Shown here piece by piece: positions 2,022-25,977 of a stretch of 64,000 nt of DNA (its first letter is position 1; each line of letters opens with the position of its first letter). This stretch comes from Siniperca chuatsi. Taxonomy: Eukaryota. A model generated the notes under the pieces. That model was not told the DNA's origin. It searched no databases and worked only from the letters and a program-made list of their open reading frames with translations. The stretch is taken from assembly GCF_020085105.1 (NCBI RefSeq), contig NC_058054.1, positions 6,995,595 through 7,059,594 of the forward strand, in the 5' to 3' direction. The position numbers and the translations under genes are program-made.

Positions 2022-2949
2022 GGCGTTTGCTGTGACGGCAGATAAGGTGCAGAAGGGCATCCGTGTCTTCAACAAACTGTTCTCGGAGCGAGCTGAGAGC
2101 CTCTGGCAGCACGTCATTGACCTCAACAGCATCGCCGACGGCCTGGACAAATTCAACAAGAACACAAAGATCGCTCAAATCACCGGCGGCTCCACCAGCG
2201 CTATCGGGGGCGTAACCACCATCACCGGCCTCGCTCTGGCCCCGCTCACCATGGGAGTGTCCTTGATTGTGACGGCGGTGGGATTGGGTGTTGCCACGGC
2301 AGGCGGTCTGACATCAGCTGGTGCCGGCATCTCCAACCAGGTCAACAACTCAATGGACCGCAAGAAGGTGGAGAAGATTGTGCAGGATTATCAGGAGAAG
2401 ATGGTCGACCTCAACAAGTGCCTGACATTCATCAAGCAGGGTATTGAGAACCTGAAGAAATTTGACCTGATCAAGATGAAAAAAACCGCTTACAACCGTG
2501 ACTTCCCTGCGCTCAATAGTAGTTTCTATGCGGATGGTGCCATGGCAGGAAAGGCGATCCTCAGCAATCTTAATGAGATCATGCGTGTGGTGCACATGGC
2601 CAATGTGGCGGGCAGCACAGCAGCCAGAGCGGTCCAGATTGCCAGCATGGCCACTGGTGTACTCACTGGACTCTTTGTAGGTATGGACATCTACTTTGTG
2701 GCCAAAGACTCCAAAGAACTCAAGAAAGGGGCCAAGTCAGAGTTCGCTGCCAAAATCAGGGAGGTGACTACGCAGCTGCATGAAGGTCTGGTGGAGCTCA
2801 ACGGGATACGAGAGGAGCTGCAGTCCACCTCGCCGAAAAACAACGCAGGCAATGTTATCGCTGCTTTGGACAGTAACAAGAAAGAGAAAGATAACAAATA
2901 TGACAGTTCGGATGAACATGAAATCGACCGCATTAAAAAAAGCCATTGA
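2022..2949 (+). CDS. ApoL-like paralog A terminal exon. It holds the complete apolipoprotein-L domain (Gly-rich hairpin ...ITGLALAPLTMGVSLIVTAVGLGVATAGG..., then ...MDIYFVAKDSKELKKGAKSEFAAKIREVTTQLHEGLVELN...). Stop TGA at 2947-2949.
   Basis: Matches the 305-aa ORF in the track. The CAG acceptor at 2019-2021 sits in the same frame. Clear similarity to the ApoL family, for example human APOL6 (GLAPFTEGGSL / [37 protein letters not shown]). Confidence 0.85.
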
Positions 2950-5900
2950 AAAGGACATTGAGAACCGAGAATATGACAGCAGTGCTGCCAAGTTTCACGC
3001 ATTGATTGTGAGAAAGTGTTGGATAGCTTTTCACATGCTCTCAGGCCACACGTCCATTTTCTCCCGCTGCGATAAGCAAATTTAAAGGCTAATTGATAAC
3101 GGCACCAAAAGAGGACAGCGTGCGGACAGACAAGAGCAGCACAGCGCAACAGCGAGTTATTCAGACCATCAGGGGGAAAGAAAGAAATATCCACAAATCT
3201 ATTATATTGTAATTTACTTCAATACATGCTGCTCAGAGTAATCTCAGTCAGCGGCTTCTCTGGCAGCAGCGCACCGTCTCCCTTTCCTCTCACGCCGTGT
3301 GCTCGCAGGCAGTGAGTTACTATGGTTACAGGGACTGTCTGTCGCTCTGAAACTTTGGCGAGATTCCCAATATTAGGTTTTTAGGTTAGTATGCCTATGC
3401 AAAATCATGAATGTAATTGTACCTAAATGCTGAACTCTAGTAGGTAACATTATTTTACATTTTTGGTTAGCATTATACATTGTTGCCAACACACTCTCAT
3501 CTTTCTCAAATCTATCTCACAAATCTCCCGCCAAATAAGAGGAAGCCTCAAAGCCACTCCTTCATGAAAAAATATAATATTTTTGAATATAATATATATA
3601 TATAATATATTTCTTTGCACACAGGACAAAGTCTGAACTTCAGGCTTTTTTTCCAGAGCCCAAAGCACACAGTTTGTGTGGATTTAGTTGAGAAAGGCAC
3701 ACACACACACAAACTGCTACAAAATCAAAAAATGCCTTTCATGTATGCAGAGTTTTGCCTCACTTAGATTACATAAATGGACAGTAGATAATCCAGATTG
3801 AGGGGGTTGAGGAGTGATGACCCCGACCCCTGCGGTGGGTAATGTCGCAGAAGGCCTACTCATAAAATGCACCAACTTCACCAATACAGAATCTCACTCC
3901 AAACAAAATTGAAAACTTGGCAGCCCTGTTTGACTGAAACTTCAAAACTTAATTTATTATTAAGGTTTCAAAGAGAAGATTCAAGCATTGTCAGTTTACC
4001 AGTTCCCCTGGTACAAGTTTTTGAAAGTACCGACTCCAGCATACAGCTGCATTGTTAGTATCTACAAGGTCGTTGGTGCCAGTTTCTTCAAATGGAAAAC
4101 TACAATCAGGCTTATTTTGAATGTCCAAAGAGGAGACTTTCCTCTTTATGAAATACACTGGTTTCTAAAGCTTCTGGACTTTTCTTTTAGGGATCTGACT
4201 AAACAGTATTTACACTGCTGGGAGGAACTGAGGTTTTGTGGTAGATAAAGTATCGTATCTGCTTTCCTGGCAATTGTGCCAACGTGTGAAACAGCCATGA
4301 AAATGGGATTTAAAGATTTATCTAAATCATGTAGTTGGATAGTACAGTTTTAGATTAATTAAAGAAATAGGTGCAAAGTATTTTCTAGACTTTATAATTT
4401 AGACTTTTAAGTGACGCTTAGAGTTTCATCAAAGTGTGTTGGTTCATATTGAAACATGAGGACTTTTACTGACCAGGTGTAGAGATTGTTTATACTCTTA
4501 CGGACGAGTGCCTTTATTATTTATAATTCCTTAGAAATACAGTATGATGCAGTGTAGTCTGTTTCTGTATTTGGGTGTCAGGGCTGCAACAAACCCATTT
4601 CCCGACTTCCCCTGACTGTTTTGGATCTGATGCGGGATGTTGATGTTAAAATTTTACAAGTCTTGTTTGGCTTTATGATATTGGTCTCATTTTGAAGAAT
4701 GACAGTAATAAGATTTGTTTTAGATCGTTTTTTACAAAGAGCCAATAAAATGACAAAATGATGGTGAAAAAGAACCCGGGTGGGGTTGCATCGGCTGTTC
4801 GTGAATCCAAGTTTGTATGTAAAGTGTTTAATAGCTAGTTTCAAACTAGTGATTCACTAAATTGGATAGTACCATTCAAACGTAAGGAATGTCCTAGCTA
4901 CTTTAGTAATGTGTTAATCGGTTGTTAGGAAACATCTGTAGGGATCTGACTAATTGTCAAGTGTAAACAGGACAAGCCGTAACATAACTTCCAAAAGTAA
5001 CAGTTTTAGGGGGGCAAATTACATATCTAACTTAACTGCCAATCATTTGTAAATTTATGCACTAGTTTGTTTTATTTAAGAATGCACACATGGAGAAATA
5101 CATGTGATTCAGAGTTATTAGTATTTATGCAGTTTTAGGATGAGGGAGAAATTTCTGATTATGCTAACGTAACTGACATTATTTCATCATTTAGTGTAAT
5201 GTTTTGGCATTTTTTTGTAATCTGTGGTAGAATGGGTTTCTTCCCAGTTTACATAATTACGAAACAGCATCAGGTCAGATATGTCAACCATATTTCATAT
5301 TATCTCTAAAACTCCCCAGTCTAACCTGGACATATATTAGCAAGCTAGCATTAGCTTTGTTATTTGGTTCCGTTAGCTAGGCAGCCGTTACACCTGGGAG
5401 TTACTGGGTGTAAATATTTTGCTAGCAACTAATGACTATGTGAGAAATAGTTCTTGTGGAGCAACCTGTTTTAATTTAGTGATGTGTAAATCTCCACTTA
5501 GTAAACACTTTTAAATTTCAAGTTAGAACTTGCGAACAGCTGGTGCAACTGGCTCCATGCGAATACAGCAGGGGATGACACAAACATGTCTGAGGTGAAC
5601 TTGTAGAACTGATGGGAAATAAATTACGGTATTTATTTTCTTACAAGTTTAGCCATTGGATTTTAATCATGTCTTCAGTCATATTAGATGTTTAAATGGT
5701 TTCCTGGTGTAAAATAGTCCCTTATTAGACAAGTGGAATGACACAGGACTGTATAAACCAGCCAGCCTTTTGTCATTCCCTTTTATTAAGACATTAATAT
5801 TTTAAAGATTGTTATTTCAAAGTCGGTGTTTGATATGTGGTCTGTACTGTAAGCTCTGAAGATGCCCTGTGTGTTCTGTTTAAAGAACTTTATATTTCAT

Positions 5901-8399
5901 TTTCAGTCTTGTTCTGGGTGTTGTTCATTCAATGATACCTTTATGTGCAATATATTGTATAACTCCCTAACCCTAACCCACTAAATGTAACTGTAGAATT
6001 GATAATTAAAGGTCAGAGAAGCATTTTCTGTCAATCTGTGCGTAATGCAAAGTCTGTATGCAAGCGAGCAAACACTTAATTTCCTTCTACCGACTACTGG
6101 GCACCGAGTTGGTATTTGCTCAGTTAATAACCAAGATAAATGTGTTTGTCAAAGCACCATTTACTTTCCTTCAGAAATTTCCATGACGAATGTAGATGGA
6201 AGTCTTCCAGCTGCAAAAGTCTCAGCATTTCTGTCATCCTTTATATTTTTACCATGAGAATGTATATACTAGTTTGATCTTGTATTATGAGATTAGGGTT
6301 AAATTTATGTTGAGATTACAGTCAATATTTTGTGACAGTATTCAACATTTTACCCCCCCCCCCCATATTCTGTGGATTTTCTGTATGTGTTTAGGCAACA
6401 AGACACAAAAACTCGACCCACCTGTTGTGTTATAGGAAATCCTGGGGCCTGTAAATGAAAACATTATTCAAGAATAATAATATTTTTAAGAAACTATGAA
6501 TGTTTAGACGTTACGCAGCTGTGATTAGAGAGGAAACCTTCGTACTGGAGTGATTTAATGGTGTTTAGACCAAATTTAACACCAGAATATTCATCAATAA
6601 CAATGAAAGCCCACTGTGACATAAAATCACTATAAACTTTTTACAGGGACACAGTGAGTTTTTACTAATATTATAACGGTTACAGTATGTTTTTCTATGG
6701 TTTTACTTTAGGATTCTTTAGAAGATAAACAGTATCTTAAGATTTTACTGTAATATTTTTACCCTCCCAGGGCCAAAGCTACAATTGAGGACACCGAGTT
6801 CATGTCTTTGAATTTGGGCATTTTAACAAATCTGAGGAAAATTTTACATTTTACAGTTACACATTAACAATATCTAAATCGAACAGTTAAATAAAATCGA
6901 ACAGTTAAATTAACAAAATTGATATTGAAAAACTGTACTCTAAAAAGAAAAAAGTGAAATAATCAGATGATCTTAGACTTTTTTTGGTGGTTATAGGAAA
7001 AAAAAAATCTAAGGGGGTGGGACTGAACTGGGAGATTTTAGTCTCATGCCCTCAGTATTTCTAATATTAAGTACAGAATAAATATATGGACCATTATGAT
7101 TTCACAATGTGTCGCTGTTGGGACTTCTGCCAAGATGATAACTGCATCTTTCTTTTCTATTTTTTGGAACAGCTCCCATCAGTTTTTGCTTACATGTTGT
7201 TGACTCGTGAAACTGATGAGTCACACCGGCTGGGAAAGGCACAGACACAGGTAGACCTCAAACTGGCCACGCCCCACTCCCAGGTGAGTCCACAGCCACC
7301 TCAAAGCATCTTCTCCGAATGCAAAAACCAGGTGAGATATTGGACTTTTGATGCTGCCTTTCATCTTTGGAACAATTATCAGATGGACATTTGGTGACAA
7401 AGATCTTCTGTGGTCGCCGTGTATTGTAACAGATGATTTCACTGTGGGGATGTGTGGCACAGAAGCCCTCAGGGCGTGATTTGGTTGGTTTAAGACGCTT
7501 TGATCGACCTTGTTAGTAATGCTGCCTTTGGGTGGTGTCGGAAATATTTGGATTACATAAAGTGGAGGTAAAATAGACTTGAGCAACATGTGAACATGAG
7601 ATGGACAGGTAGAGTGTACATGAGTAGTTGAAATGTAAAGGTGGAGAGGATGAAAGCTGCAATAACCATATTAATGTTTGCATTTTATTCTAGGCTAAAT
7701 AAACAACATTGCATACTTTTATTTCACATTTAGGTATATTTTTGCATTTTTTTGTGTTTGTATTTTATTCTTGTTTTGCACACTTTGTCTTTAAAGGCAC
7801 ATTGGAAATTATTTTTTCTGATGCAATAGTTGTGTAGTTTAACATATTTCTAGATGAAACAGGATGTTGACACTATGGCTGGTTATTTGAAATGTTTCAA
7901 TATGATACCTGTGTTATTAGTAGTGAAAGTAGAATGATACCTTTTTTTGCATGCAAGAACTGAATCTAAACAAAAATCTAGAATAAAGGGAGAGAGGCCT
8001 ACTAAATAAAAAATTATGTTGCAGTGCATCAACCCCCAATGTGCAGTGCAAAGGTTACTTACTGTGTTATAAATTACAAGCAGTGAAAAAAAAAAGATAA
8101 GTTATCATGACAGAATTAATGTATCTTTTTTCTCCATGACATCTCCTGGGCTTCACCAATTTTCAGTAAGATGTTTCAATACTCAAGGAAAAAATAGTAC
8201 AAGTAGCCTACTGAAATGATCAGCCCTGTAATATTTTTGTAGAAATATGTGAGAAAATTAAAAGAAAAAACGTCAATTATTATGCAACATGCTGGAGAAG
8301 CCATTTTTATATACAGTGTGATTATAAAAAAAAGAATCAAGCACTAGCCTACTTATAGTGTACATAACAAAAATAAACCAAAGCGCTTGAGTCGTCTTA

Positions 8400-8599
8400 T
8401 GTGACTGAAGTGCTGTGATTTCGGAGCTTTGGAGGGGCTCTTGAACGCCTCACGTGTGCAGATGTTGTGCGGGTGCGGTGAAGTTTTACAAACTCCTGGG
8501 AATATCGTGACCATGAAGGAGCCGTCACTGCTCGCTGCTTTGACAGTATTTGGTTCAAACTGAATGTAAAAGGATCTCTGAGTTGTCTTCTTATCTTCG
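8400..8599 (+). other. Candidate non-coding first exon (5' UTR) of ApoL-like paralog B
   Basis: GC-richer block that ends at a GTAGGT donor at 8600. It holds only a short uORF. It lies 1.15 kb upstream of the ATG exon. No transcript evidence. Confidence 0.25.
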
Positions 8600-12574: not shown

Positions 12575-13982
12575 GTCAGTTTTTGTTGTAAAAACATTGG
12601 AAATCTGTTATTCACTTTATATTTGAAAGCTGATTTTTAAAGGATCAACATGTCATTTCATTGAATATGATACCTTGGTCCAGTTTCCATAAACAAATGA
12701 GACCAGAGTGTAAAGTTCAGCAGATATTTCCTGAAATCAAACCCCAGGGGCAAACATTGAAAAAATGCAGCACAGAGAAAAGGAGAGGTGATTAGTTGTT
12801 GAATCAGAATCAGAAATACTTTATTGATCCCCGAGGGGAAACTCTTTTGCTGAAGTTATTTTTCAAGCAAAAAGGCCAAAAATTCCCAGATTCCAGCTTC
12901 ACCATTGTGAGGATGAGCTGCTTTTCTTTGCCTTATATAAAATGAGTGTCTTCGGGTTTTGGACTGTGACATCTCTGTGGGCTCCAGGAAATTGTGACAG
13001 ACATTATTCACTATTTTCTGACACTATAGATTAAACCATGAATTGAGAAAATAATCGGCTGATGAATAGATAATGGAAATAATCTTTAGTTGCAGCCCTA
13101 CTTATGGTTGAAATTTAATTTGGTAATGATATGTGCTACCTGTATGTACAGTGATCCAGGTAATACCCTTCACTTTTTCATTTTTCCTTCATTTTATCAG
13201 GTAAAAGTCTTTTTCAAGACATCTGGCGATGAGGGTAGCATTAAAAACATTATTACCACCGTAAATACAAACAACATAAACAAACTAAAACAACTGTCAC
13301 ATGCTTCAAAAGACTACAGACATATATCTAGGACAGATATCTAGTTAGGATTAATTTACAGGTATGAGTTTCCAGAACTTTCAAAATGTTGTAAAAACAA
13401 TAAATTTAGAAGCAAATGCATTGACCAAGAGTACTTTATTAGTTGTTACTGAACGTAACTGCACTACAATGTATTTCTGATCTTTTATTCTGTATGTTGT
13501 TCCAAGAGAGGAAGGAAAAGCATATTTAAAAGCTTTTTTGCCCAACTCTTCGTCTAAACTTCAAAGCATTTCTACAAGGCTCAAGTAAAAAGAAACAGTG
13601 CTTTAAAAAAAATAGAAAATAGCTTTAATGTAGCTATGATAGTGACCAAACTGTGTGCAGAGCTCCTAAAACTAACTAGCATATTTATAAAAATATTCAA
13701 TCTACCTTATTTTCCTGTTCTTTTTTTCTTTATAGATTGTACCTACATTAGGTTATGTTAGGTTTATTAGGAAGATACGTATATACATATATAAATACTG
13801 TAAATGTATTGTATACTTTTTTCTTTTTCTTTTTTTTTTAAAGAAGTTAGCTGTCTTTCTGATTTTAGTTTTATGTGATGTCTTATTATGTATTTTTCTA
13901 ATTGATCCATATGTTCTAAGTCTGGAAGAGGGGATGTGATTACAAAGTAGAAAATAGATAATCATGTCTTCTTTGGAGACAG

Positions 13983-14054
13983 GAGAAAGGAGATGCGTTT
14001 GGTGGAATATTCAAGAAGTCGTCCAGACTTGCACACAGCCCTCCCACAGAGGAA
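13983..14054 (+). CDS. B-type mini-exon 1: EKGDAFGGIFKKSSRLAHSPPTEE
   Basis: AG acceptor at 13981-13982 and GTAAGA donor. 72 nt, phase 0. Carries the GG.F.G.FKK motif. Confidence 0.55.
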
Positions 14055-14332
14055 GTAAGAAGTGTCTTCTTTGTTTTCTGGTCCTTTTCAGTCATCCCAT
14101 ATATCGCTAATATTCTTAAACAGCAAATCAGTGTTTTCAAATTGGATGTTACCAAAATGTCAGACTAGTACACTTGTGACTGGAAGGCTGCTGGTTTGAA
14201 TCCCAGAACCAACAGTAAAAGCATTAGCTGTAAAAGAGCAGTAGGTGGCTCAGTTACCCCTCGCTGTTAGTGATGAAATGTTAAAAAGTCTGTAGCGTGT
14301 AACAGGTTCTGATTGTTTTTATCTCTTCTCAG

Positions 14333-14383
14333 GACGATGAGCTCTCAAGCAGCAGTGAAGCTCTGTCTGAGGACAACACCAAG
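14333..14383 (+). CDS. A-type mini-exon 3: DDELSSSSEALSEDNTK
   Basis: tcttctcag acceptor and GTGAGG donor. 51 nt. Confidence 0.6.
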
Positions 14384-14472
14384 GTGAGGTTTTTTTATGC
14401 ATCATTTAGAAACGGCCCTGAATAACTTTACTTTCGGAGAGAGCACTCATTGTCTGAATATGTATGTTTTAG

Positions 14473-14544
14473 AAAAAAGGAGGAATATTTAGTGGAATAT
14501 TCAAGAAAACTCCCAAACCTGCAAAAGTTGCTCAACCTGAGGAG
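14473..14544 (+). CDS. B-type mini-exon 2: KKGGIFSGIFKKTPKPAKVAQPEE
   Basis: ttttag acceptor and GTAAAA donor. 72 nt. Confidence 0.65.
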
Positions 14545-15031
14545 GTAAAAGTATAATTTGTCTGTGTCATTTACAGCAATATCAACCTTCATATTTTTAT
14601 TTTCTTGGAAGTCTTTTATGATAATGTTTAAATTGTAAAAAGCCTCATTACCTGTTGGGTAGCAGGATATCTGACACTTGTCTTCCAGATTTCTGTTCAA
14701 ATTTGGTGGAAAATTAGGAATACAAACAAACAAGTGATTAGTTGTTGGTGCAGATTCAGTATTTATTTTGAAAGATTTCTTAACATTGTGCATTTTTGAA
14801 TGTTTTCACTATTTTCACATGAACTACTGCACTGAAAATCTGGCACATGTATCCCATGATTGTCTATTACTGTGTATACCATTGCAAAACCATGCTCAGA
14901 TGTTCATTAAATATTTTCTATTACTCATTTCTATTAATATTAATATTACTATACTATATTACTATTAATATAGTAACAGGTAACATTTATTTGTTACCAC
15001 AACTTTTACAACCTCTGATAATTTTTTACAG

Positions 15032-15091
15032 GACGAGTCTTCCGACAACGAGCTCTCAACCAGCAACGAGAATTTATCTGAGAACAAACAG
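15032..15091 (+). CDS. A-type mini-exon 4: DESSDNELSTSNENLSENKQ
   Basis: ttttttacag acceptor and GTCAGT donor. 60 nt. Confidence 0.6.
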
Positions 15092-15189
15092 GTCAGTGAG
15101 TTGAAATCCAAGATGATTAAATGCTTTTCAACAAAACAGCAGTTGGATTTGTAAATACAGTAAAGCCTTTTTATTGTGTATTTCATCAG

Positions 15190-15258
15190 GTGAAAGGTGG
15201 AGGGTTGTTCAGCGGACTCCTGAAAAAGACTCCCAAAGCGTCTGGGGAAAGGACACCG
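15190..15258 (+). CDS. B-type mini-exon 3: VKGGGLFSGLLKKTPKASGERTP
   Basis: cag acceptor and GTGAAT donor. 69 nt. Confidence 0.6.
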
Positions 15259-15347
15259 GTGAATGAGTGTTTCCTGGATGTGCAATGAGTTTCTAAGCCT
15301 GCACGCAATTTCACCCGTTTCATGTAACATAAATTTCTGTGTTTCAG

Positions 15348-15413
15348 GACAGGGAGGCTCAGAAAGAGCTGTCAGCCAGCAACGACGACCCGTCTGAGAA
15401 TAATACGACAAAG
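15348..15413 (+). CDS. A-type mini-exon 5: DREAQKELSASNDDPSENNTTK
   Basis: gtttcag acceptor and GTGAGC donor. 66 nt. Confidence 0.65.
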
Positions 15414-15495
15414 GTGAGCAGTATAATGCAGCAACACCTTAAAAATATAAAATGTCTTTCAAGGGAATGTTCATTGACACCAAATTATTTTCCAG

Positions 15496-15564
15496 GAGAA
15501 AAATATTTTTGGCAACATGTTTAAGAAGCCGCAGAAACCAGCAGAGGGCGCTGCAGCAGACAAG
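15496..15564 (+). CDS. B-type mini-exon 4: EKNIFGNMFKKPQKPAEGAAADK
   Basis: ttttccag acceptor and GTACTG donor. 69 nt. Confidence 0.6.
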
Positions 15565-15664
15565 GTACTGTGATTTGATGAAATTGATTAAATCAGTCTT
15601 TAAACTTCCTGTTATGGAGGATGGAGTAGATGTTGATATTTACTGTTTTCTGGTTTGAATTCAG

Positions 15665-15736
15665 GAGCTGGAGGTGAACAGTGAAAATCAGTTATTTGGT
15701 AGCTGTGAGAATCTGTTTGATACCACCGTCCCGAAG
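15665..15736 (+). CDS. A-type variant mini-exon 6: ELEVNSENQLFGSCENLFDTTVPK
   Basis: ttcag acceptor and GTACAT donor. 72 nt. Confidence 0.55.
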
Positions 15737-16171
15737 GTACATCACTCTTTTAAAAAGAAAACAACACAAAACAAAACCCCTCTTGTTCTTAATTTTTCTG
15801 TCTCAAGGTGGCTGCTGTTGTCATGTGAGCTGAAACCTGATCATGATGATATCTTTGTGTTTGTCCTGTCCTGTCATTGGTCCTGTTGTGCGTTGCATTT
15901 AGCTGCAATCAAATATGCATGTAATAAATAATAATCTTTGTTTGGAGGGCTGTTAGTTACAAAGTGCTTCACACAACAAAAGTAAATAAAAACAAAAATA
16001 ATAAAAAAATTGTTCCAGATGAAAATCAAAAAATGGTGTGAGCAGTGTCTGATTCACTGTGTGTGATTAACTTGGGAGCAGGTTTAGCTTTTGACTCTTG
16101 TTTCTCTTTAGTTTTTCTGTTGTTTCTGAATGTATTCATTGAAGAGAAATAACAAATATTTGTGTTTTTAG

Positions 16172-16237
16172 GAGAAAAAAGGAGGCCTGGCTGGCATCTT
16201 CAAAAGATCAGCCAGCATCGACAGCCTGTTTGACGAG
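16172..16237 (+). CDS. B-type mini-exon 5: EKKGGLAGIFKRSASIDSLFDE
   Basis: tttttag acceptor and GTCAGT donor. 66 nt. Confidence 0.6.
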
Positions 16238-16651
16238 GTCAGTGTCCGCCCCGCACACACTCAACGCAGCATCCTCCCTACAGTTTAAGGCACCACTAAG
16301 GAGACATCATTGTTACACATGACAAAAATAAGTTGCAGAATCTACAGCATGTTTGAAGACAGTACAACTTGATTTTTTTTTTATGGTGTGCTGAAATGAA
16401 CCCAGCGCCTGCCTGAAAGGTAGAAAATAAATCGACTGTATGCTTTGAAACATAATCGGCAAAAATGTATAAAGTGCAATTTGAGGTATGTTTCCTGGAT
16501 AAACCATCTTCTTTCAAGCCTTTTTTTGCACTCTTCACGAGCCAATCGAGAGAAGATTATCAACAAAATGTCCAACATTAAACTGTGTTAATGACCTTTT
16601 ATCTTTGGTTTCAAACTTTGCACTGCACTCATTTGCATTTTCACTCATCAG

Positions 16652-16723
16652 GAAAAAGGCGGGCTGTTCAGTGGACTTCTTAAGAAAACACCCAAAGTGT
16701 CTGGAGATGAGGCAGCTGCAGAA
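16652..16723 (+). CDS. B-type mini-exon 6: EKGGLFSGLLKKTPKVSGDEAAAE
   Basis: cag acceptor and GTGAGT donor. 72 nt. Confidence 0.65.
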
Positions 16724-16810
16724 GTGAGTGTGTGACTTAGTTACACTGTTGGCATCACTGTCTGTGGTGACTGTTGCATATTTATATATTGTCCATTTCT
16801 CTTTTTTCAG

Positions 16811-16876
16811 GACAAAGATGACCAGAAGGAACTGTCAGCAAGTAATGATAGTCTGTTTGAAAACAGCAACACTAAG
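16811..16876 (+). CDS. A-type mini-exon 7: DKDDQKELSASNDSLFENSNTK
   Basis: cttttttcag acceptor and GTGAAA donor. 66 nt. Confidence 0.65.
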
Positions 16877-17041
16877 GTGAAATGTTGGTTTTTGAACCAC
16901 GAAAGGAATTTCAACAAAATTTCAACATGCTCGTACTGTTCTTTGAATTTTACTGTCAGCTGTGACACATTACAGATACTCCTGATGTAGTTTTTACTGC
17001 CACTTATACAGATTGTGTCTGTGTCTAATGTCTGTTTTTAG

Positions 17042-17110
17042 GAGAAAGGTATTTTCAGTGGCATGTTTAAGAAGACTCATAAATCAGCAGAGGGGACTAC
17101 AACAGATGAG
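17042..17110 (+). CDS. B-type mini-exon 7: EKGIFSGMFKKTHKSAEGTTTDE
   Basis: tttttag acceptor and GTACAG donor. 69 nt. Confidence 0.6.
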
Positions 17111-17211
17111 GTACAGCAATGACCCTTTCACATAAAGTTCATAGTATATTATACCATTTGACTCTACTTTGTATCTGTCTTTGTCTTTTTTATGTTTTAT
17201 TTTATGTTCAG

Positions 17212-17283
17212 GAATTGAACACAGGCGAGGATAAGAAGTTATCGGCCAGTTGTGAAAATCTGTTAGAAGCAACCACGTCAAAG
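17212..17283 (+). CDS. A-type mini-exon 8: ELNTGEDKKLSASCENLLEATTSK
   Basis: ttcag acceptor and GTACAA donor. 72 nt. Confidence 0.6.
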
Positions 17284-17380
17284 GTACAAATGTTGTCCGA
17301 CGACCACAATCTCAGCCTGTTTTTCTCTGTTCTGCCACTGATTAATGACTATTAACGTGTGAATGTTTCTTATGTTTCAG

Positions 17381-17452
17381 GAGAAGACTGGAGGACTGGC
17401 AGGGATCTTCAAAAAGTCTCCGAAACCAGCTCCACGCTCGATCGCTACTAAG
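17381..17452 (+). CDS. B-type mini-exon 8: EKTGGLAGIFKKSPKPAPRSIATK
   Basis: tgtttcag acceptor and GTGACC donor. 72 nt. Confidence 0.6.
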
Positions 17453-17642
17453 GTGACCAAATAAACTAATTTTGTTTTGTTTTTTTGTGGTGATGTGTAT
17501 GGTTACCGGTTGTTGAGTTGTCTGTGAAATCTCTCATTTACATTTTTAAGCGAATCATATTGTGCTCAAATTCTTCAAAAATAACCTTCAACAAGTTAAA
17601 ACTAATTGATTTGCCTACAAAATGTTCCTTTTTGTTTTCCAG

Positions 17643-17705
17643 GATCCTCTCAGTGACACAAAGGAACTGTCCGCCAGCTGGGACAGCCTCACAGAAACTG
17701 CCGAG
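17643..17705 (+). CDS. A-type mini-exon 9: DPLSDTKELSASWDSLTETAE
   Basis: ttttccag acceptor and GTGAGA donor. 63 nt. Confidence 0.6.
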
Positions 17706-19308: not shown

Positions 19309-19518
19309 GTGAGTTGTTCACTTCAGAAACATCATGACAGAAGACAGAAAACCAAAGTGTATTTCAACATCTATACCACTAGGTGGTTTAGGTTACTTAT
19401 ACTGTATCCATACATGAGATTATTTTTCTCTTGCTTCTCCAGTTTGAGCTCTTACCTTTTGATGTTAAAGTCATCTTGTCATTGACAAACCTTTCTTGTT
19501 TCGTTTCAATGTTCTCAG

Positions 19519-19581
19519 GTTGTATCATTCCGAGTCAGAAAAACTCTTCCCAAAATACCCAAGCTTAATCTAACTTCACAG
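19519..19581 (+). CDS. Paralog B exon (63 nt, phase 0): VVSFRVRKTLPKIPKLNLTSQ
   Basis: ttctcag acceptor and GTATGT donor. Open frame. Confidence 0.45.
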
Positions 19582-19919
19582 GTATGTAATGATCTCCTCT
19601 AGTTGTTCCTCAGTTACTTCTCACTTTGCTGTTTTGCTCCTGTTCTTTAACTGCATTAACAAAGACCGATCTGAAATTTGGTATAGATATGGATATCAAC
19701 ATGCTGAACATTTTCCTTTTACATTTTTGATTGAATGGTTGTTGTCCTGAGTAATTTTTTGACACAGATACATGTTCTGTCTCTACAAATATGCATTGTC
19801 CTCTTTTAAATTCATATTTCCTTTAGTTGTTTACTGGTTTTATTATTGATGTGTGTTAAAGTTCTCCAATGAACTTATTACTAAGTTAATGACATTAATC
19901 GTCCTTTATTCCTCCATAG

Positions 19920-19982
19920 AGTTCAGACAAGATCCCTGTTTTTGAGGAGACTGTTGAGCTGCAGGATCTGAACCCAGCGCAG
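19920..19982 (+). CDS. Paralog B exon (63 nt, phase 0): SSDKIPVFEETVELQDLNPAQ
   Basis: tccatag acceptor and GTTAGC donor. Open frame. Confidence 0.45.
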
Positions 19983-20653
19983 GTTAGCATGATGATATTA
20001 TAAAATAGATATACAGGAAAAAAACATTTTAGTGGGGTTCACAAATGTCCAACCAAGCCTAAATCTTAACTAAAATTTATATATATATAAAACATCTTTT
20101 ACATTAATAAATTAATTAACTCACTAAATAAAACTGGAACAGTCTGAAGATTCAGATACACTTGTAAAAAGCGAAGAAATGTATAATACATGAAAATGGA
20201 AGTACGTTTTTAAAGCATTGCTGATATGAAAATGTTAAAAACACTGTGTAGTCATTTCAAATGTTTACAAACATAACATATCATGTTTATCATGTAATCA
20301 GACACTTGTGAGTTGTGGGAATCTGCAAATTAAAAAACCTCTGCTGCTCATAAGAGTCTCAGCCTGCGTAAAACAGTATAATAATTACATCATATCCTTA
20401 TAATATTATTAACTGTGTATTTCCTTTTGTGAAGCACAACCTTAGGTCACCACTCTACATCTGATTACAGGGAGAAAATAAACCCTTTTCTGTATGTGAT
20501 ACAGAACCATACAGACTGTCAACCGCTGAGAATCAGAATCTGTGTCCCTCTAACAGGCATACAGAGAGAATGGTAGTGACAGTAGTTACAGATACTAACC
20601 CTTTTAACTGAATTTTTTGTCACAAAGTTGTGTTATTGTGTTTGTTTTTCCAG

Positions 20654-20728
20654 GAGAGCACAGTGGAGGTCCAGCCTGTGAAGATGGCAGCTTACAATAC
20701 TGAAGACAACCCTCTTGAATCTGAGCAG
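20654..20728 (+). CDS. Paralog B exon (75 nt, phase 0): ESTVEVQPVKMAAYNTEDNPLESEQ
   Basis: tttttccag acceptor and GTGTGT donor. Same position as paralog A exon 495-572. Confidence 0.5.
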
Positions 20729-20738
20729 GTGTGTTTTT

Positions 20739-21819
20739 GGGTGCTTTCACACCTGTAGTTTGTCTCTTGGTCCGGATCGAATGAACCAAAGTGACACAAT
20801 ATTGCATTTTAGTTCTGGTCTGGTTCGTGTTCACACTGACTTTTTATAAACAAACCAAAAAGGAGTAAACACAAAGTTATACAGACTGACAGGTAACTCG
20901 TTGATTGGACAGTTTCGGTGATGGCATCCTGCATCATCAGTGCATCATCAGGACCCACGTGGGGAATTCAAATTCCTGTGACTGACAGAAGTTTATGCAG
21001 CAATTTAATGCTTCTGATGTGTATATTTATGTTCTTCGGTGTCACAAAGAGCTCATGAAGAAGTATCTGATTATGAGCATTATTAATATTATTGGACTGC
21101 AAATCGACCGCATGTTATGAATAATGACTTACAGGTAGATAAAGGACTAAAAAGAGGCATCTTGTACAGCAATATTCCAGGGGTAATTACTGTGGGATCA
21201 CTCTGTCACACACTTTTTAATGGACTTAATTAAGTAAATAATTAAGCACATGGAGTAGGATACAAACACAACACACCTGAGGTTTCCAGGTCCAGAAAGA
21301 AAGTTCCTTTGACAATAAATTAACACTTTCTACAGGGAGATAGTCCATGAGTGGCCTCTAAATGTTCAGAAATGGCTGATCATTACCTTTAAGCACAGAG
21401 CTGAGCCTTTCATGTGGTAATACATTAAAGATTTCTTTGTACCAGAAAGTAACAGTAGGAGGGGTTTCCTTGAACGTTTTTTACCAAATGATTTAAATGA
21501 ATATATACATGGCTTATACAGATCATTATCTCACTTATCAGATTGCTTCCTAAACAGTTCAGGACCAGTAGATGGATTTATTAGTAGTTTAGCTTTTGAA
21601 ATCATGCTAAAATCACATCCCTACTATCAAAAAGTCCTGTGGTTGGTCTGTTTGCTTTCAAACCACAAATTAATCGCACCAGAGTCTGCTTGGAGGGTCT
21701 CGGTCCGGTTGTTTGGTTCGAGCGACAGCTCTCACAGCAGCCCAAACGGCCGCACTAACCGGGCAGACGCACCATATTTCATTTTAACTGAACCAAACAG
21801 GTTAGTTGTGAAAGCACCC
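20739..21819. mobile_element. Non-autonomous DNA-transposon-like insertion in a paralog B intron, with about 13-15 bp terminal inverted repeats (GGGTGCTTTCACA ... TGTGAAAGCACCC)
   Basis: The inverted repeat sits at 20739-20753 and 21805-21819. No long ORF lies inside. Confidence 0.45.
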
Positions 21820-21919
21820 TTAGTGTTTGTGTGTGTGTAAGTGTGTTTGCATGTTTTACTACATATATGCAACCGATACTGTATGTTGTCTTTTCATTGA
21901 CGAAGGTCTCTGTTTTCAG

Positions 21920-21959
21920 GAAAGTGATGAGTTGATGGAGTGGTGGAACACCGTCAAAG
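21920..21959 (+). CDS. Paralog B exon (40 nt, ends phase 1): ESDELMEWWNTVK
   Basis: tgttttcag acceptor and GTCAGT donor. Paralogous to exon 694-733. Confidence 0.7.
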
Positions 21960-22062
21960 GTCAGTATGATTGTGTTCATCTTTAATCTTTAAGTTTGTTG
22001 TGCTGTTCCACCAGGAGAATTACCACTGATGCCAAAGAAAGTGTGGAAATCACACACTCACT

Positions 22063-22092
22063 CACACACACACACACACACACACACACAAA
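22063..22092. repeat. (CA)n microsatellite
   Basis: Perfect CA dinucleotide run. Confidence 0.95.
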
Positions 22093-22227
22093 TAAATAAA
22101 AATGTTTCTTTTAATGTAAAGTCCCAAAAAAAGATTCAATAAATCAGCACTAAAAACTAGAAACAAAACACTGTTTTATGTATTTGCTCCATATACTAAT
22201 TGTATTATTTCTGCTTCCGGTTTACAG

Positions 22228-22279
22228 GTTGGACGGACTGGAATGAGACATCCAATTTCCAGGAAGGGGATGAGGAAAT
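22228..22279 (+). CDS. Paralog B exon (52 nt): GWTDWNETSNFQEGDEE(M)
   Basis: tttacag acceptor and GTAAGT donor. Paralogous to exon 1403-1454. Confidence 0.7.
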
Positions 22280-22918
22280 GTAAGTTTATTTTCTTTAATA
22301 ACTTTTCATTCAAATTTACCCAGAAGATATTATTTTGGCATTCTGAGGACATTTTAGTGTGCAGGAGGCTGTTTAATCTTTTTTTTTTAGTCAGCACCAT
22401 CTGACCTGTCGCAAGTACTGTTGCTACTGCTATCTAAAGTAGCTAGGAAGCTCATTGATAATGGGCAAATGTAAAATAATTAAATGAATCAATCATTTTT
22501 AATTGGTTAACTCCATCCATCCATTTTCTGCTTCTTATCCAGATCCAGGTTGTGTTAATATAGTTAATTATAGCATTAGAAATTATTGTTATATACTGCT
22601 GGGAACGAAGTACTGAAAAAAATGTGATATAATAATGAATAATTTTGGGTCATAACGTCCCTGCTAGTTTTCCATCGTACTTTCAAGCTTTGGCCAATAT
22701 GACTGAAACAGGTATTAAACTGGTTTATTGGTGAACTCTGCAGAATCCCTGTTATCCAGTATTTGTCAACATTCGGGTTCAAATGATAAATGTAAATATT
22801 TTAAGAGCCCATGTTTTGCTGGGTCCACACACATGCACGTAGGAAATAGCTATTTCTTAGACTTACAAGCATTTAACTTTAAACTTAACAAATACACCAT
22901 CCATCCACCATTCTCCAG

Positions 22919-23333
22919 GGCGATGGAGCAGGCAGCTGATCGTGTCTACATGGCAGCTCGTCTGTTTGTGCATCTTTTCAACCAGCGGGGGGCGTCCTTA
23001 CAGCATCGCATCCTGGAGCTTTTGGCTCTGGCCGACGCTGCAGATCAATTCCACAAAAGAACAGTGACAGCTGCTGTGGGTGGAGGGGTGGCCAGTGTTG
23101 CAGGCAGCGTGGCAACAATCACAGGGCTCATTCTGGCGCCTTTCACTTTTGGTGCCTCTATTATTGTCACAGCGGTGGGGATTGGCGTGGCGACAGCGGG
23201 CAACATCACGGCAGCGACAGCCAATATCACAGATACAGTTCACTCCAGCATGGACCGCAAGAAGGTGGAGAAGATGATCCAGAGCTATCAGGAGGAGATC
23301 AAAGACATCAGAGAGTGTTTGGAGTTCGTACAG
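22919..23333 (+). CDS. Paralog B exon, first half of the ApoL domain: AMEQAADRVYMAARLFVHLFNQRGASLQHRILELLALADAADQFHKRTVTAAVGGGVASVAGSVATITGLILAPFTFGASIIVTAVGIGVATAGNITAATANITDTVHSSMDRKKVEKMIQSYQEEIKDIRECLEFVQ
   Basis: ttctccag acceptor. The frame carries over from the previous exon (at + g gives atg). GTGAGG donor at 23334. Homologous to paralog A residues AFAVTADKVQ...FIKQ. Confidence 0.8.
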
Positions 23334-24192
23334 GTGAGGAAATGTTTGATTTGAGTTTGTAGCTGAATCTCACATAGGCTTTGCAGATGTGTCTACAGAC
23401 TTATTACTGCTGGTGACATTATACAGGTTCACTGGAGACATAGTAATGCAAAAATACTGTAACTAGACCAGAACTAGAGATTCCTGAAAAAAATGTGGTT
23501 GCTTTGTAGATTAATCTGTAAAAAAAAATTCCAATGTAGTAACAAGAAATGTTTGAAGTAATGTAGAAAGTGTTGCACTGTTACTGCTCGGTATGTATTT
23601 TAGTCACAGTTCTTTCGAAAAATAAATTCAAGGGATTCCTATCCTATGTCCCTAAAATGTTTGTGTTTATGTAAAAAATAATACTGGCCAATATTGTAAC
23701 TCTCAAGTATTAGCATTTTTATATCTGCCTCCAGTATAGAAATCTAGTATTGATCGGGCTGTGACTGCTTTTGAGTTTAGCTTGAGAAGAGCTCAGTTGG
23801 CTTAATCGTTAAACCAGTAGGTGTGTTTTTGTATTGTTAGCTAGCTAACTAGACATTAAGATAGTTTAGTTAGCTAGTAAATACATTTTTATTTGACATG
23901 GACATCACAATAGTAATGGAATTGCATAGAGATGCATTGGGTGTGAGAATGACTTTGTGTAGCAATAATGGAAAACACCTGTCGTCGGGTAATTAACGAA
24001 AGTAACTGATGTCAATATCGAAATGATAGTAGCCACCGCTAAAGCTAGGTTTTACTACATGTAGGCTAAGTAAGGAAGGAAATGTGCATCAAAAATGAGT
24101 TTGGGATTACATATGTGAATAGTTTTAAAATCACGGGAAAACCTTGAACCTTTAGTAGTGTCCTCCTTTTTTTGTCTCTGTGCCACTTGTAG

Positions 24193-25977
24193 GACGGTAT
24201 GGACACCCTGCAGGAGTGGGACTTTGAGAAATACTCAGAGAGTGCTGCCAAAAAGGCTCTGAACCACAACCTCAAGCATGTGATGAAGGAGGGCGGCCGT
24301 GCCGGAAAAGCCTTGATGATCAACACCGATAAGCTCATCAGCACTGTGCAGGTTTTAGGCGCTGCAGGCGGAGCCGCCAGAGCTGCCCAGGCCATCAGCG
24401 TCACCACAGGTGTCATGTCGGCCCTCTTTCTCGCTCTGGATGTTTTCTTCCTCGCCAAAGACTCCCACGAGCTCCACAAGGGCGCCAAAACTAAGTTTGC
24501 CACCAAGATCAGGGACGTATGTAAAGAACTTCAAGAAGGCCTCCTGGAGCTGAACAAGGTGAAGACACAGCTGCAGAAGACCATGGACGGCATTGAGGTG
24601 GAGGAGTACGAGGAGATTGAGGAGGTAGAAGTGGAAGTTGACGACGATTTGGAGTCGGATCCAAAGAAGCTGGCTGAGCTGGAGCAGGAGCTGGACCTCC
24701 TGGAGGAGAAACTGGACAAGAAGGTCGAGGAGGAAGAGCAGAAGAAGATTAAAGAGATGGAGAAAGAAAATTTGAAAAGAAAGAAGGAGAAAAAGGAGGA
24801 GAAGAGCATGAAGGAAAAAGGAGAGCCAGAGGAAAAGAAGGAGAAGGAGGAAACAGGAGAAAAGGATGCTAAGAACGAGGGAAAAAAGGAAAGTAAGAAG
24901 GGAGGAAGTGAGGGAGAAAGCAAGGTTGAGTCAAAATTAGAGAAGATTTCTGATGAGGAAAAAGAGCAGAACAATGAGACAGTCAAAGCAGCCAAAGAGG
25001 AAGTTTTAAATGAACAATCTCAGAAACAGAAGAAGGACAAAGAAACTGAGAACCGAATTACAGCTGGAAAAGAAATATATGAGAGCAAGCAAGACAAGGC
25101 AAAAGAAGACATTAGTACAAATAGAAAGGCAGACGAAAAGGAAAAAGAGAAAAATAAGACTGGAAAAGAACACAAGGAAATTAAGAGCAGATCAGACGAT
25201 TCAAAACGAGAGGACCGGAGTGGAAAAGCATATTCTGAGAGGGTCAAAACAGAGAGAGAAAGCGAAAGGAGTAAGAGCAGCAGAGAGGATGAAAGAGTGA
25301 TGAATAAAGAGAAAGAGGCAGAAAGTGGGAGTGCAAGGAGGCACAGCAGCAGGAGTGACAAAGATAGACCCCACAGACGTGAAAGAGGGAGCAAACACGA
25401 AAATAAAGAAACCGAGAGATGCAGCAGCAGAGACAGAAAACAAAGTGACAGGAGGGAGAGCAAGAGGAGGACAGAGGAGGACAGAGGAGTGAGGGACTGG
25501 AGAGCAGAGATGGCAAAAAGTAGAGACGAGAAGAGAGAGAGCAAGGAAGGAAGAGAATCTAAGAGAGAGACAGAGAGAGGGACAGAAAGGGAACATCATG
25601 GAAAAAGCAACGTGAGCAAAGAGTCACATCGAAGCCACGAAACGGCGACGAGGAGGAAGCATTCGGAAAGAGAGTGGGGGAGCAGCAGGGAGGAATCTGA
25701 CTCGAATAGGAGTCACCACAGGAGAGGAACAGCCCCGCATGATGACCGGAGGGAGAGAGCAGATGAGAAACGAGGGAGCAGGATTGAGAGGGCAAAGAGG
25801 CAGTTTGAGAGAGCAGGGGGTGAGGAGGAGGAGGACAGGGGGAAGAGGAAAGAGGATGGACAGAGTCAGGGGAGGGACAGAGAGAGGAGAGGAAGTGATA
25901 GAGGCAGAGAGCACCACAGCCACCGAGGAGCTCGACCACGATCCAACGCGCTGCTGGAAGACGGACTGAATATTTAA
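24193..25977 (+). CDS. Paralog B terminal exon: second half of the ApoL domain (..VMSALFLALDVFFLAKDSHELHKGAKTKFATKIRDVCKELQEGLLELNKVKTQL..), then an open low-complexity tail of about 480 codons (K/E-rich, then R/S/E/D-rich) to TAA at 25975-25977
   Basis: ttgtag acceptor in frame. This matches the 592-aa ORF in the track. The homology to paralog A stops at about codon 130 of this exon. The tail is only weakly supported, because the GA-rich sequence is open in several frames on both strands. Confidence 0.7.
   Translation, partial: DGMDTLQEWDFEKYSESAAKKALNHNLKHVMKEGGRAGKALMINTDKLISTVQVLGAAGGAARAAQAISVTTGVMSALFLALDVFFLAKDSHELHKGAKTKFATKIRDVCKELQEGLLELNKVKTQLQKTMDGIEVEEYEEIEEVEVEVDDDLESDPKKLAELEQELDLLEEKLDKKVEEEEQKKIKEMEKENLKRKKEKKEEKSMKEKGEPEEKKEKEETGEKDAKNEGKKESKKGGSEGESKVESKLEKISDEEKEQNNETVKAAKEEVLNEQSQKQKKDKETENRITAGKEIYESKQDKAKEDISTNRKADEKEKEKNKTGKEHKEIKSRSDDSKREDRSGKAYSERVKTERESERSKSSREDERVMNKEKEAESGSARRHSSRSDKDRPHRRERGSKHENKETERCSSRDRKQSDRRESKRRTEEDRGVRDWRAEMAKSRDEKRESKEGRESKRETERGTEREHHGKSNVSKESHRSHETATRRKHSEREWGSSREESDSNRSHHRRGTAPHDDRRERADEKRGSRIERAKRQFERAGGEEEEDRGKRKEDGQSQGRDRERRGSDRGREHHSHRGARPRSNALLEDGLNI

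What the first reader, a model, noticed from the sequence alone, without database searches (positions are those of the whole stretch)
2022..25977. Precise intron presence/absence difference between the two tandem ApoL-like paralogs
In paralog B the ApoL domain is split by an 859-bp GT-AG intron (23334-24192), after codon ..EFVQ and before DGMDTLQEW... In paralog A the homologous junction (..FIKQ|GIENLKK.. at about 2437) is continuous coding sequence in a single 928-bp exon. The flanking exon and intron architecture upstream is otherwise conserved between the paralogs (40-nt and 52-nt exons with identical phases). This is therefore a clean intron loss in A or intron gain in B after duplication. 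Such cases are useful for studying the mechanism, for example retro-conversion by partial cDNA.
Basis: seen in the sequence. Interest (0 to 1): 0.5.

Follow-up and report, generated by a model that had tools for sequence, protein, structure and literature searches.

The report
Ancient intron gain in teleost apold1
Two neighbouring fish ApoL genes do differ by one intron, but it was inserted into the apold1 lineage before modern teleosts diversified and has been kept since, so it is an ordinary example of a known kind of event and tells us little about mechanism.

Summary
Gene B has an 859-bp GT-AG, phase-0 intron (23334-24192) inside its ApoL domain. Gene A reads straight through the homologous point in one 928-nt exon. 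The 40-nt and 52-nt upstream exons match in size and phase. Two corrections apply. The genes are not recent duplicates: they share about 45% protein identity. A is the orthologue of teleost apol1 and B of apold1a, and the same pair sits side by side in carp and Paramormyrops, with both genes annotated on one Albula contig. I polarised the event with nine loci from other species. All six teleost apold1 genes examined (a and b copies; Elopomorpha, Osteoglossomorpha, Otophysi, Percomorpha) have an intron at exactly this codon boundary. All ten other genes lack it at this site: four teleost apol1 or apol1-like genes, both gar genes, sterlet, reedfish and two caecilian genes. An eleventh, the sea-bass apol1b-like gene, also lacks it there but has its own intron elsewhere. 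This fits one intron gain on the teleost apold1 stem, after the gar split and before the crown teleosts. It does not fit cDNA-mediated loss in A. The event is probably over 250 Myr old, so no trace of the mechanism remains. Lineage-specific intron gains in ray-finned fish are already documented.

The parts
494..572 (+). Gene A (apol1 orthologue): coding exon. The gene's 5' end lies beyond the window start.
   Evidence: AG/GT flanks and reading frame. Orthologues 72-90% identical across teleosts are named apolipoprotein L, 1.
694..733 (+). Gene A: 40-nt exon encoding ..MEWWNTVE..
   Evidence: Pairs with the B exon as repeat D3.
1403..1454 (+). Gene A: 52-nt exon
2022..2949 (+). Gene A: last coding exon, 928 nt to the stop. 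It encodes the whole ApoL domain without interruption.
   Evidence: Pfam ApoL E = 1.8e-35.
2434..2439 (+). Point in A homologous to the B intron: AAG|CAG (K138|Q139), between bases 2436 and 2437.
   Evidence: Gap-free pairwise and 32-sequence alignments.
13980..17705 (+). Approximate region holding upstream, low-complexity exons of gene B. Exon boundaries were not resolved.
   Evidence: Weak tblastn hits from long relatives of 990-1322 aa found in the representative search.
20654..20728 (+). Gene B (apold1a orthologue): coding exon
21920..21959 (+). Gene B: 40-nt exon encoding ..MEWWNTVK..
   Evidence: An exon of the same size is present in gar, sterlet, Paramormyrops and both Albula species.
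22228..22279 (+). Gene B: 52-nt exon
22919..23333 (+). Gene B: 415-nt exon encoding the N-terminal half of the ApoL domain. It ends ..CLEFVQ.
23334..24192 (+). Gene B: the 859-bp GT-AG, phase-0 intron that splits the ApoL domain.
   Evidence: Donor CAG|gtgagg, a pyrimidine tract followed by tag|G, and stops in all frames. GC 34.9%. Introns at the same codon boundary in five other teleost apold1 genes. No Rfam family, no repeat copy in the window, and no similarity to other loci.
24193..25977 (+). Gene B: last coding exon. It holds the C-terminal half of the ApoL domain (to about 24600) and then a tail of about 460 aa rich in Glu, Lys, Arg and Ser, up to the stop.

Best explanation
The 859-bp segment is an ordinary, constitutively spliced U2-type GT-AG intron in the apold1a gene. 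It was gained once, by insertion at a codon boundary (phase 0) with no loss or gain of codons. The target was the large exon that originally encoded the whole ApoL domain. The insertion happened on the stem of the teleost apold1 lineage, after the separation from gars and before the crown teleosts. It most likely also preceded the teleost whole-genome duplication, because both apold1a and apold1b carry the intron. The neighbouring gene apol1 (A) simply keeps the ancestral uninterrupted exon.

Shown here: the presence and exact position of the intron in six teleost apold1 genes; its absence at that site in eleven other family members; splicing in a transcript of a close relative. Inferred: the polarity (by parsimony on the gene tree), the timing, and insertion at a proto-splice-like site. 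The molecular source of the inserted DNA cannot be recovered.
For: (1) Orthology. B's best hits are apold1a / si:rp71-1g18.13 at 73-91% identity, and apold1b sequences are about 70% identical. A's best hits are apolipoprotein L, 1 at 72-90%.

(2) Old tandem pair. apol1 lies just upstream of apold1 on the same strand in carp (L002) and Paramormyrops (L007). An apol1-like gene lies upstream of apold1b in Albula goreensis (L005) and sea bass (L009). In gar a second ApoL gene lies upstream in the same orientation.

(3) Intron present at the identical boundary ..F[VLM]Q|[DE]G.. with exon junction CAG|GA: window (859 bp), Albula glossodonta apold1a (464), carp apold1a (115), Albula goreensis apold1b (1174), Paramormyrops apold1 (292) and Dicentrarchus apold1b (310).

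(4) Intron absent at that point, with one continuous ORF: window apol1, carp apol1, Paramormyrops apol1, Albula goreensis apol1-like, both gar genes, sterlet, reedfish and two Rhinatrema genes. The sea-bass apol1b-like gene also reads through this point.

(5) NJ tree with 500 bootstraps. The teleost apold1 clade has 100% support and apol1 has 99%. The split {apol1 genes + upstream gar gene} versus {apold1 + gar + sturgeons + bichirs + amphibians} has 94%. The intron-bearing clade is therefore nested among intronless genes. This needs 1 gain, against at least 5 independent precise losses.

(6) The alignment is gap-free around the site in all 32 sequences. This fits insertion, not conversion of coding sequence into intron.

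(7) Intronless relatives read AAG|C (gar, apol1) or AAA|A (sterlet) at the site. AAG|C fits the MAG|N proto-splice consensus reported for intron gains in fish serpins (PMC2746811). AAA|A does not.

(8) The 40-nt exon is conserved in gar and sterlet. The upstream introns are therefore ancient and retained, and only this one is teleost-specific.

(9) Splicing. A 1202-nt Logan contig from a close relative encodes 383 aa, 94% identical over the domain. It reads CLEFVQAGMDTLQEW straight across the junction and across the three upstream junctions.
Against: The polarity rests on parsimony, and in vertebrates intron loss is generally thought to be more frequent than gain. This is the 3'-most intron, which is the class most prone to reverse-transcriptase-mediated loss, so repeated loss is not impossible.

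The tree is a simple neighbour-joining tree on 262 columns. The upstream gar gene and the Albula apol1-like gene are long branches that attract each other (83%). The relations among gar, sturgeons and apold1 are unresolved (21-41%).

No bowfin, shark, coelacanth or mammalian locus was examined here. Transcript evidence comes from a related species and not from the source genome. Nothing indicates where the inserted DNA came from.
Confidence: 0.85

Rival explanations
1. The intron is ancestral to the ApoL subfamily. It was precisely lost several times: in the apol1 lineage, gar, sturgeons, bichirs and tetrapods. The likely route would be recombination with reverse-transcribed mRNA, which favours 3' introns.
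For: It is the last intron of the gene, the position most susceptible to cDNA-mediated loss. Teleosts are reported to have elevated intron turnover, including losses (PMC12357937). The deep branching order of the tree is weakly resolved.
Against: It needs at least five independent, exact losses of the same intron. In each case the three introns immediately upstream would have to be spared; the 40-nt exon is conserved in gar and sterlet. Against this stands a single gain. All ten genes with an uninterrupted ApoL exon come from five lineages outside teleost apold1, and the sea-bass apol1b-like gene also lacks an intron at this site.
Confidence: 0.08
2. One reading: gene A lost the intron recently through retro-conversion by a partial cDNA, after a recent tandem duplication in this lineage.
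For: Only the raw difference between A and B in the window.
Against: A and B share only about 45% protein identity. Each has 72-91% identical orthologues across teleosts. apol1 is also intronless at this site in carp and Paramormyrops. The gar, sterlet, reedfish and caecilian genes lack the intron too. A keeps all its upstream introns.
Confidence: 0.01
3. Independent parallel gains at the same site in apold1a and apold1b, or in separate teleost lineages, and not one gain before their divergence.
For: Convergent intron insertion sites have been reported in fish slc26 genes (PMC12357937). The ApoL exon has a second, different intron in the sea-bass apol1b-like gene. The orthologous introns share no detectable sequence.
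Against: All six genes have the identical phase and codon boundary and the same exon junction, CAG|GAR-GG. They form one clade with 100% support. Loss of intron sequence similarity is expected over this time span.
Confidence: 0.04
4. The segment is not an intron: it is retained coding sequence, or an assembly or insertion artefact in a pseudogene.
For: No RNA data exist for the source genome itself.
Against: There are stops in all three frames, and read-through ends after 6 codons. The splice signals are canonical and the GC content falls to intron level. Both flanking exons are under clear protein constraint, 73-91% identical to orthologues. A spliced transcript contig exists in a relative. 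Introns sit at the same place in five other species' genes.
Confidence: 0.01

Closest known systems
Lineage-specific intron gains in ray-finned fish genes (serpins, Ragg et al. 2009, PMC2746811; slc26a1/slc26a2, Torii et al. 2025, PMC12357937)
   Same: A new phase-0 spliceosomal intron was inserted into a formerly continuous coding exon of a vertebrate gene. It is restricted to a ray-finned fish clade. In gar and apol1 the intronless site reads AAG|C, which fits the MAG|N proto-splice consensus. No codons were added or removed.
   Different: The insertion is older, on the stem of all living teleosts and carried by both ohnologues, whereas the published cases arose within Euteleostei or later. 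No source sequence is identifiable, unlike the transposon-like notothenioid slc26a2 introns. This gene has not been described in that context; no paper in the library mentions apold1a or apold1b.
Reverse-transcriptase-mediated (cDNA recombination) intron loss
   Same: It would also give an exact presence/absence difference between paralogues and would favour 3' introns.
   Different: It requires the intron to be ancestral. Here all genes outside the teleost apold1 clade lack it, and the neighbouring upstream introns are intact in A.
Apolipoprotein L family (Pfam PF05461; human APOL1-6 and APOLD1)
   Same: Both window genes encode a full ApoL domain. In most family members examined here the domain is encoded in one large terminal exon.
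   Different: Teleost apold1a/b split the domain with an extra intron and add long low-complexity N- and C-terminal extensions. One-to-one orthology of the fish 'apold1' genes with human APOLD1 was not tested. The window also holds an RRM-domain ORF that I recognise from memory as resembling hnRNP C or RALY, which could be a synteny lead.

Membership tests
ApoL domain protein (Pfam PF05461) | Significant full-length match to the ApoL profile above the gathering score | tested here: met
   A: E = 1.8e-35, 123 bits, profile positions 44-297 of 298. B: E = 3.4e-34, 119 bits. The cut-off is 25.9 bits.
Teleost apold1a orthologue (gene B) and apol1 orthologue (gene A) | Closest relatives carry that name, with much higher identity than to the other paralogue, and gene order is conserved (apol1 upstream of apold1, same strand) | tested here: met
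   B is 73-91% identical to apold1a / si:rp71-1g18.13. A is 72-90% identical to apolipoprotein L, 1. A and B are about 45% identical. The same order is seen in carp and Paramormyrops loci, and for the b copies in Albula goreensis and sea bass. Clade support is 100% and 99%.
U2-type GT-AG spliceosomal intron | GT donor and AG acceptor with a pyrimidine tract; removal restores an uninterrupted reading frame collinear with homologues | tested here: met
   CAG|gtgagg ... tcctcctttttttgtctctgtgccacttgtag|GAC. The joined exons align gap-free to 31 homologues.
U2-type GT-AG spliceosomal intron | Actually removed from mRNA | tested here: inconclusive
   A 1202-nt Logan contig from a related species (94% identity over the domain) encodes 383 aa straight across this junction and the three upstream junctions. 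No transcript data exist for the source genome.
Reverse-transcriptase-mediated intron loss (in gene A) | The intron is ancestral: outgroups and orthologues of the intronless gene carry it | tested here: not met
   The intron is absent at this site from carp and Paramormyrops apol1, the Albula and sea-bass apol1-like genes, both gar genes, sterlet, reedfish and two caecilian genes.
Reverse-transcriptase-mediated intron loss (in gene A) | Adjacent introns are often lost together towards the 3' end | tested here: not met
   A retains the three upstream introns flanking the 40-nt and 52-nt exons.
Intron gain by insertion at a proto-splice site | Intronless homologues show MAG|N at the homologous point, and there is no indel in the coding alignment | tested here: met
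   AAG|C in gar and the three apol1 genes. AAA|A in sterlet, CAA|C in the Albula apol1-like gene and AAC|A in reedfish do not fit the consensus. Intron-bearing genes read CAG|G. The alignment is gap-free. This is compatible with gain, but on its own it is weak evidence.
Transposon-derived or 'introner' intron | Terminal repeats or target-site duplication, and other copies of the intron sequence in the genome | tested here: inconclusive
   The intron has no copy in the 64-kb window. blastn finds no similarity to the rest of the window or to nine loci. Given the inferred age of the event, any signal would have decayed. No genome-wide repeat library was available.

The most novel reading that the evidence does not exclude
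The large ApoL-domain exon may be a repeated target of new intron insertion in teleosts. Besides the old apold1 intron at residue boundary 138|139, the sea-bass apol1b-like gene next to apold1b carries a different phase-0 intron, 24 codons upstream (DRKK|VETV; L009 6265-6592). That point reads AAG|GTG in intronless relatives, and the intron is absent from the Albula apol1-like gene. If this second intron is a younger gain within the Clupeocephala, it could still carry traces of its origin. The family would then offer a dated series of vertebrate intron gains.
Probability: 0.35. Interest if true: 0.45.

Novelty: new member of a known kind. Interest (0 to 1): 0.3.

Why it matters
Intron gain is rare in vertebrates, and well-polarised cases are useful markers. 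This one gives a clean shared derived character: an intron at ..FVQ|[DE]G.. It unites the teleost apold1a and apold1b genes examined here and separates them from gar, sturgeon, bichir and caecilian ApoL genes. It adds a very old, teleost-stem case to the known list of gains in ray-finned fish. It does not open a new question.

Tried and rejected
1. I looked for more ApoL copies in the window by tblastn. There are only two.

2. I tested the intron for a hosted RNA or a repeat. Rfam at gathering thresholds found nothing anywhere in the window. No repeat family involves the intron. blastn of the intron against the rest of the window and nine loci found nothing at E <= 0.01. No hosted element, transposon identity or conserved intronic block is therefore supported.

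3. I compared the intron ends by eye with the adjacent exon ends, looking for the signature of the tandem-duplication (AGGT) model. I saw no convincing similarity, and none is expected at this age.

4. The first bootstrap run with Biopython timed out. The support values from its get_support function were unreliable because the bootstrap trees were rooted arbitrarily. I replaced them with split-based counts.

5. Three contig look-ups returned nothing: sea-bass isoform X2, paddlefish isoform X2 and Rhinatrema isoform X2. I used other proteins in their place.

6. My splice-finder gave no result for carp because the deposited carp protein model differs from the true exon. I read that junction directly from the DNA.

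7. The literature search found no paper mentioning apold1a or apold1b. The APOL1 evolution paper (PMC8557400) did not give a usable exon map for the ApoL domain.
Full report
**What is in the window**

The window is teleost genomic DNA. Two genes on the + strand encode ApoL domains (Pfam PF05461, E = 1.8e-35 and 3.4e-34). tblastn with either protein finds only these two copies.

Gene A has exons 494-572, 694-733 (40 nt), 1403-1454 (52 nt) and 2022-2949. Its 5' end lies beyond the window start. Gene B has exons 20654-20728, 21920-21959 (40 nt), 22228-22279 (52 nt), 22919-23333 and 24193-25977. Weak hits from long homologues suggest further upstream exons at about 13980-17705.

**Checking the observation**

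The B intron runs from 23334 to 24192, which is 859 bp. It starts CAG|gtgagg and ends with a long pyrimidine tract followed by tag|GAC. It is in phase 0 and has stops in all three frames; read-through would terminate after six codons.

Its GC content is 34.9%. Both flanking exons are 54.7%, and the other introns of the two genes are 33-41%.

Joining the exons gives ..CLEFVQ|DGMDTLQEW... This aligns to gene A, and to 30 other ApoL proteins, without any gap around the junction. Gene A is one continuous 928-nt coding exon across the same region. The 40-nt and 52-nt exons and their phases match between the genes.

Two details need correcting.
- In the gap-free alignment the intron position Q138|D139 in B corresponds to K138|Q139 in A. 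The homologous point is ATC AAG|CAG GGT at 2436|2437, read as FIK|QGI.
- A and B share only about 45% protein identity. They are old paralogues, not a recent tandem duplicate.

**What the genes are**

B's closest relatives are annotated apold1a / si:rp71-1g18.13. They are 73-91% identical across teleosts, including the elopomorphs Albula and Megalops. A second group, apold1b / si:cabz01007802.1, is about 70% identical. A's closest relatives are annotated apolipoprotein L, 1, at 72-90% identity from Percomorpha to Albula and Denticeps.

The same arrangement, apol1 just upstream of apold1 on the same strand, occurs in carp (L002) and Paramormyrops (L007). An apol1-like gene also lies upstream of apold1b in Albula goreensis (L005) and Dicentrarchus (L009). 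In Albula glossodonta both genes are annotated on one 232-kb contig. In gar, a second and more divergent ApoL gene lies upstream of the gene most similar to apold1, in the same orientation.

**Polarising the difference**

I fetched nine loci and mapped the ApoL-coding region by tblastn and by exact splice reconstruction.

An intron sits at exactly the same codon boundary in all six teleost apold1 genes. The boundary reads ..F[VLM]Q|[DE]G.., in phase 0, with exon junction CAG|GA.

| Gene | Intron length |
|---|---|
| Window apold1a | 859 bp |
| Albula glossodonta apold1a | 464 bp |
| Carp apold1a | 115 bp |
| Albula goreensis apold1b | 1174 bp |
| Paramormyrops apold1 | 292 bp |
| Dicentrarchus apold1b | 310 bp |

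The ApoL domain is one uninterrupted exon in ten other genes:
- window apol1, carp apol1 and Paramormyrops apol1
- the Albula goreensis apol1-like gene
- both gar genes
- sterlet
- reedfish
- two caecilian (Rhinatrema) genes

The sea-bass apol1b-like gene also reads straight through this point, although it has a different intron elsewhere (see "Seen in passing").

The 40-nt upstream exon is present in gar and sterlet as well. The upstream introns are therefore ancient and retained, and only the ApoL-domain intron is confined to teleost apold1.

I built a neighbour-joining tree of 32 ApoL domains (262 columns, 500 bootstraps).
- The teleost apold1 clade has 100% support.
- The apol1 clade has 99%.
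- The split {apol1 genes + upstream gar gene} versus {apold1 + downstream gar gene + sturgeons + bichirs + amphibians} has 94%.
- Relations among gar, sturgeons and apold1 are unresolved (21-41%).
- The two long branches, the upstream gar gene and the Albula apol1-like gene, attract each other (83%).

Under every resolution the intron-bearing clade is nested among intronless genes. One gain explains the pattern. An ancestral intron would need at least five independent exact losses, each sparing the upstream introns.

**Timing**

Both the a and b copies carry the intron, and so do representatives of Elopomorpha, Osteoglossomorpha, Otophysi and Percomorpha. The gar relative lacks it. The gain therefore lies on the teleost stem, after the split from Holostei and before the crown teleosts. 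It most likely also preceded the teleost genome duplication.

That the duplication followed the gar split is established knowledge, not something tested here. The a/b ohnologue status is inferred from names, separate chromosomes in Albula goreensis and the tree. An age above roughly 250 Myr is my estimate from general knowledge.

**Mechanism**

The coding alignment has no indel at the site. This fits insertion of foreign DNA, not conversion of coding sequence into intron.

Intronless relatives read AAG|C (gar and the three apol1 genes), AAA|A (sterlet), CAA|C (Albula apol1-like) and AAC|A (reedfish). Intron-bearing genes read CAG|G. AAG|C is compatible with the MAG|N proto-splice consensus reported for fish serpin intron gains (PMC2746811). 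This is weak evidence on its own.

The intron contains no Rfam family. It has no other copy in the window and no similarity to the rest of the window or to any of the nine fetched loci, which include the orthologous introns. The source of the inserted DNA cannot be recovered.

Today the intron works as a normal constitutive intron. A 1202-nt Logan contig from a close relative encodes 383 aa, 94% identical over the domain. It runs straight across this junction and the three upstream junctions, so it must derive from spliced mRNA.

**Comparison with what is known**

Intron gain is rare in vertebrates, but ray-finned fish are the known exception. Documented cases include serpins (PMC2746811) and slc26a1/slc26a2 in Eurypterygii and notothenioids. 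Teleosts also show higher intron turnover than tetrapods or cartilaginous fish (PMC12357937).

The present case is another member of that class. It is older than those examples and, as far as the searchable literature shows, undescribed: no paper mentions apold1a or apold1b. The gene structure itself is presumably visible in public annotations.

**Verdict**

Its either/or interpretation resolves to gain in B's lineage. The cDNA-mediated-loss example and the hoped-for use in studying mechanism are not supported. I give about 0.85 confidence to a single ancient gain, about 0.08 to an ancestral intron with multiple losses, and small residuals to parallel gains or artefact. Interest is modest (0.3).

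**Seen in passing**

- The sea-bass apol1b-like gene has a different phase-0 intron in the ApoL domain, at DRKK|VETV (L009 6265-6592). This corresponds to A's 2364|2365, which reads AAG|GTG. The Albula apol1-like gene lacks it. It may be a second, younger gain in the same ancestral exon.
- A's intron between the 40-nt and 52-nt exons holds a decayed Tc1-like transposase remnant.
- B has a C-terminal tail of about 460 aa rich in Glu, Lys, Arg and Ser.
- The window also holds a GIY-YIG ORF that may belong to a Penelope-like element, a fragment that may be retroelement-derived, and an RRM exon that resembles hnRNP C or RALY. Only the Pfam domain hits are tool results; those identities are my own recognition.

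Noticed in passing
L009 6265-6592 (Dicentrarchus labrax, apol1b-like gene upstream of apold1b); homologous point in the window is A 2364|2365: A second, different phase-0 GT-AG intron (328 bp) splits the ApoL domain at DRKK|VETV, 24 codons upstream of the apold1 intron site. Intronless relatives read AAG|GTG there. The Albula goreensis apol1-like gene has no intron at that point. It may be an independent, younger intron gain in the same ancestral exon.
   Followed up: partly
window about 1000-1330 (+), inside gene A's intron between the 40-nt and 52-nt exons: A decayed Tc1/mariner-like transposase remnant, with the peptide ..LDWPAQSPDLNPIQHLWDELE... It gives a sub-threshold Pfam DDE_3 hit (E = 6e-4, 20 bits, against a cut-off of 28.6).
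   Followed up: partly
window 24600-25974 (+): The last exon of gene B continues past the ApoL domain into a low-complexity tail of about 460 aa rich in Glu, Lys, Arg and Ser. The tail is only about 40% identical to long relatives from the representative search. Those relatives are 990-1600 aa long and also have long N-terminal extensions, so the full gene B probably starts near 14 kb in the window.
   Followed up: partly
window 51556-51984 (-): An ORF holding an RRM domain (Pfam RRM_1, E = 3e-13). From memory its sequence resembles hnRNP C or RALY-type proteins; this was not tested. One apold1b hit is annotated as a fusion with METTL3. If both leads hold, the fish 'apold1' region might correspond to the human HNRNPC-METTL3 region and not to the human APOLD1 locus. 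The human locations are from memory, and orthology with human APOLD1 was not tested.
   Followed up: no
window 32036-32557 (+) and 38933-39619 (-): ORFs that may derive from transposable elements. One has a GIY-YIG endonuclease domain (E = 8e-7), which may indicate a Penelope-like element. The other matches the ALKBH8_N profile (E = 5e-6) and may be a retroelement fragment. The element identities were not tested.
   Followed up: no
L003 3566-4309 (spotted gar): A divergent ApoL gene with a single-exon ApoL domain lies about 10 kb upstream of the gar gene named 'Apolipoprotein L domain containing 1b' in UniRef, in the same orientation. It groups with teleost apol1 genes (94% bootstrap split). 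This suggests the apol1/apold1 tandem pair predates the gar-teleost split, although long-branch attraction is possible.
   Followed up: partly
window 22058-22091 (+), inside gene B's intron between the 40-nt and 52-nt exons: A (CA)n microsatellite.
   Followed up: no
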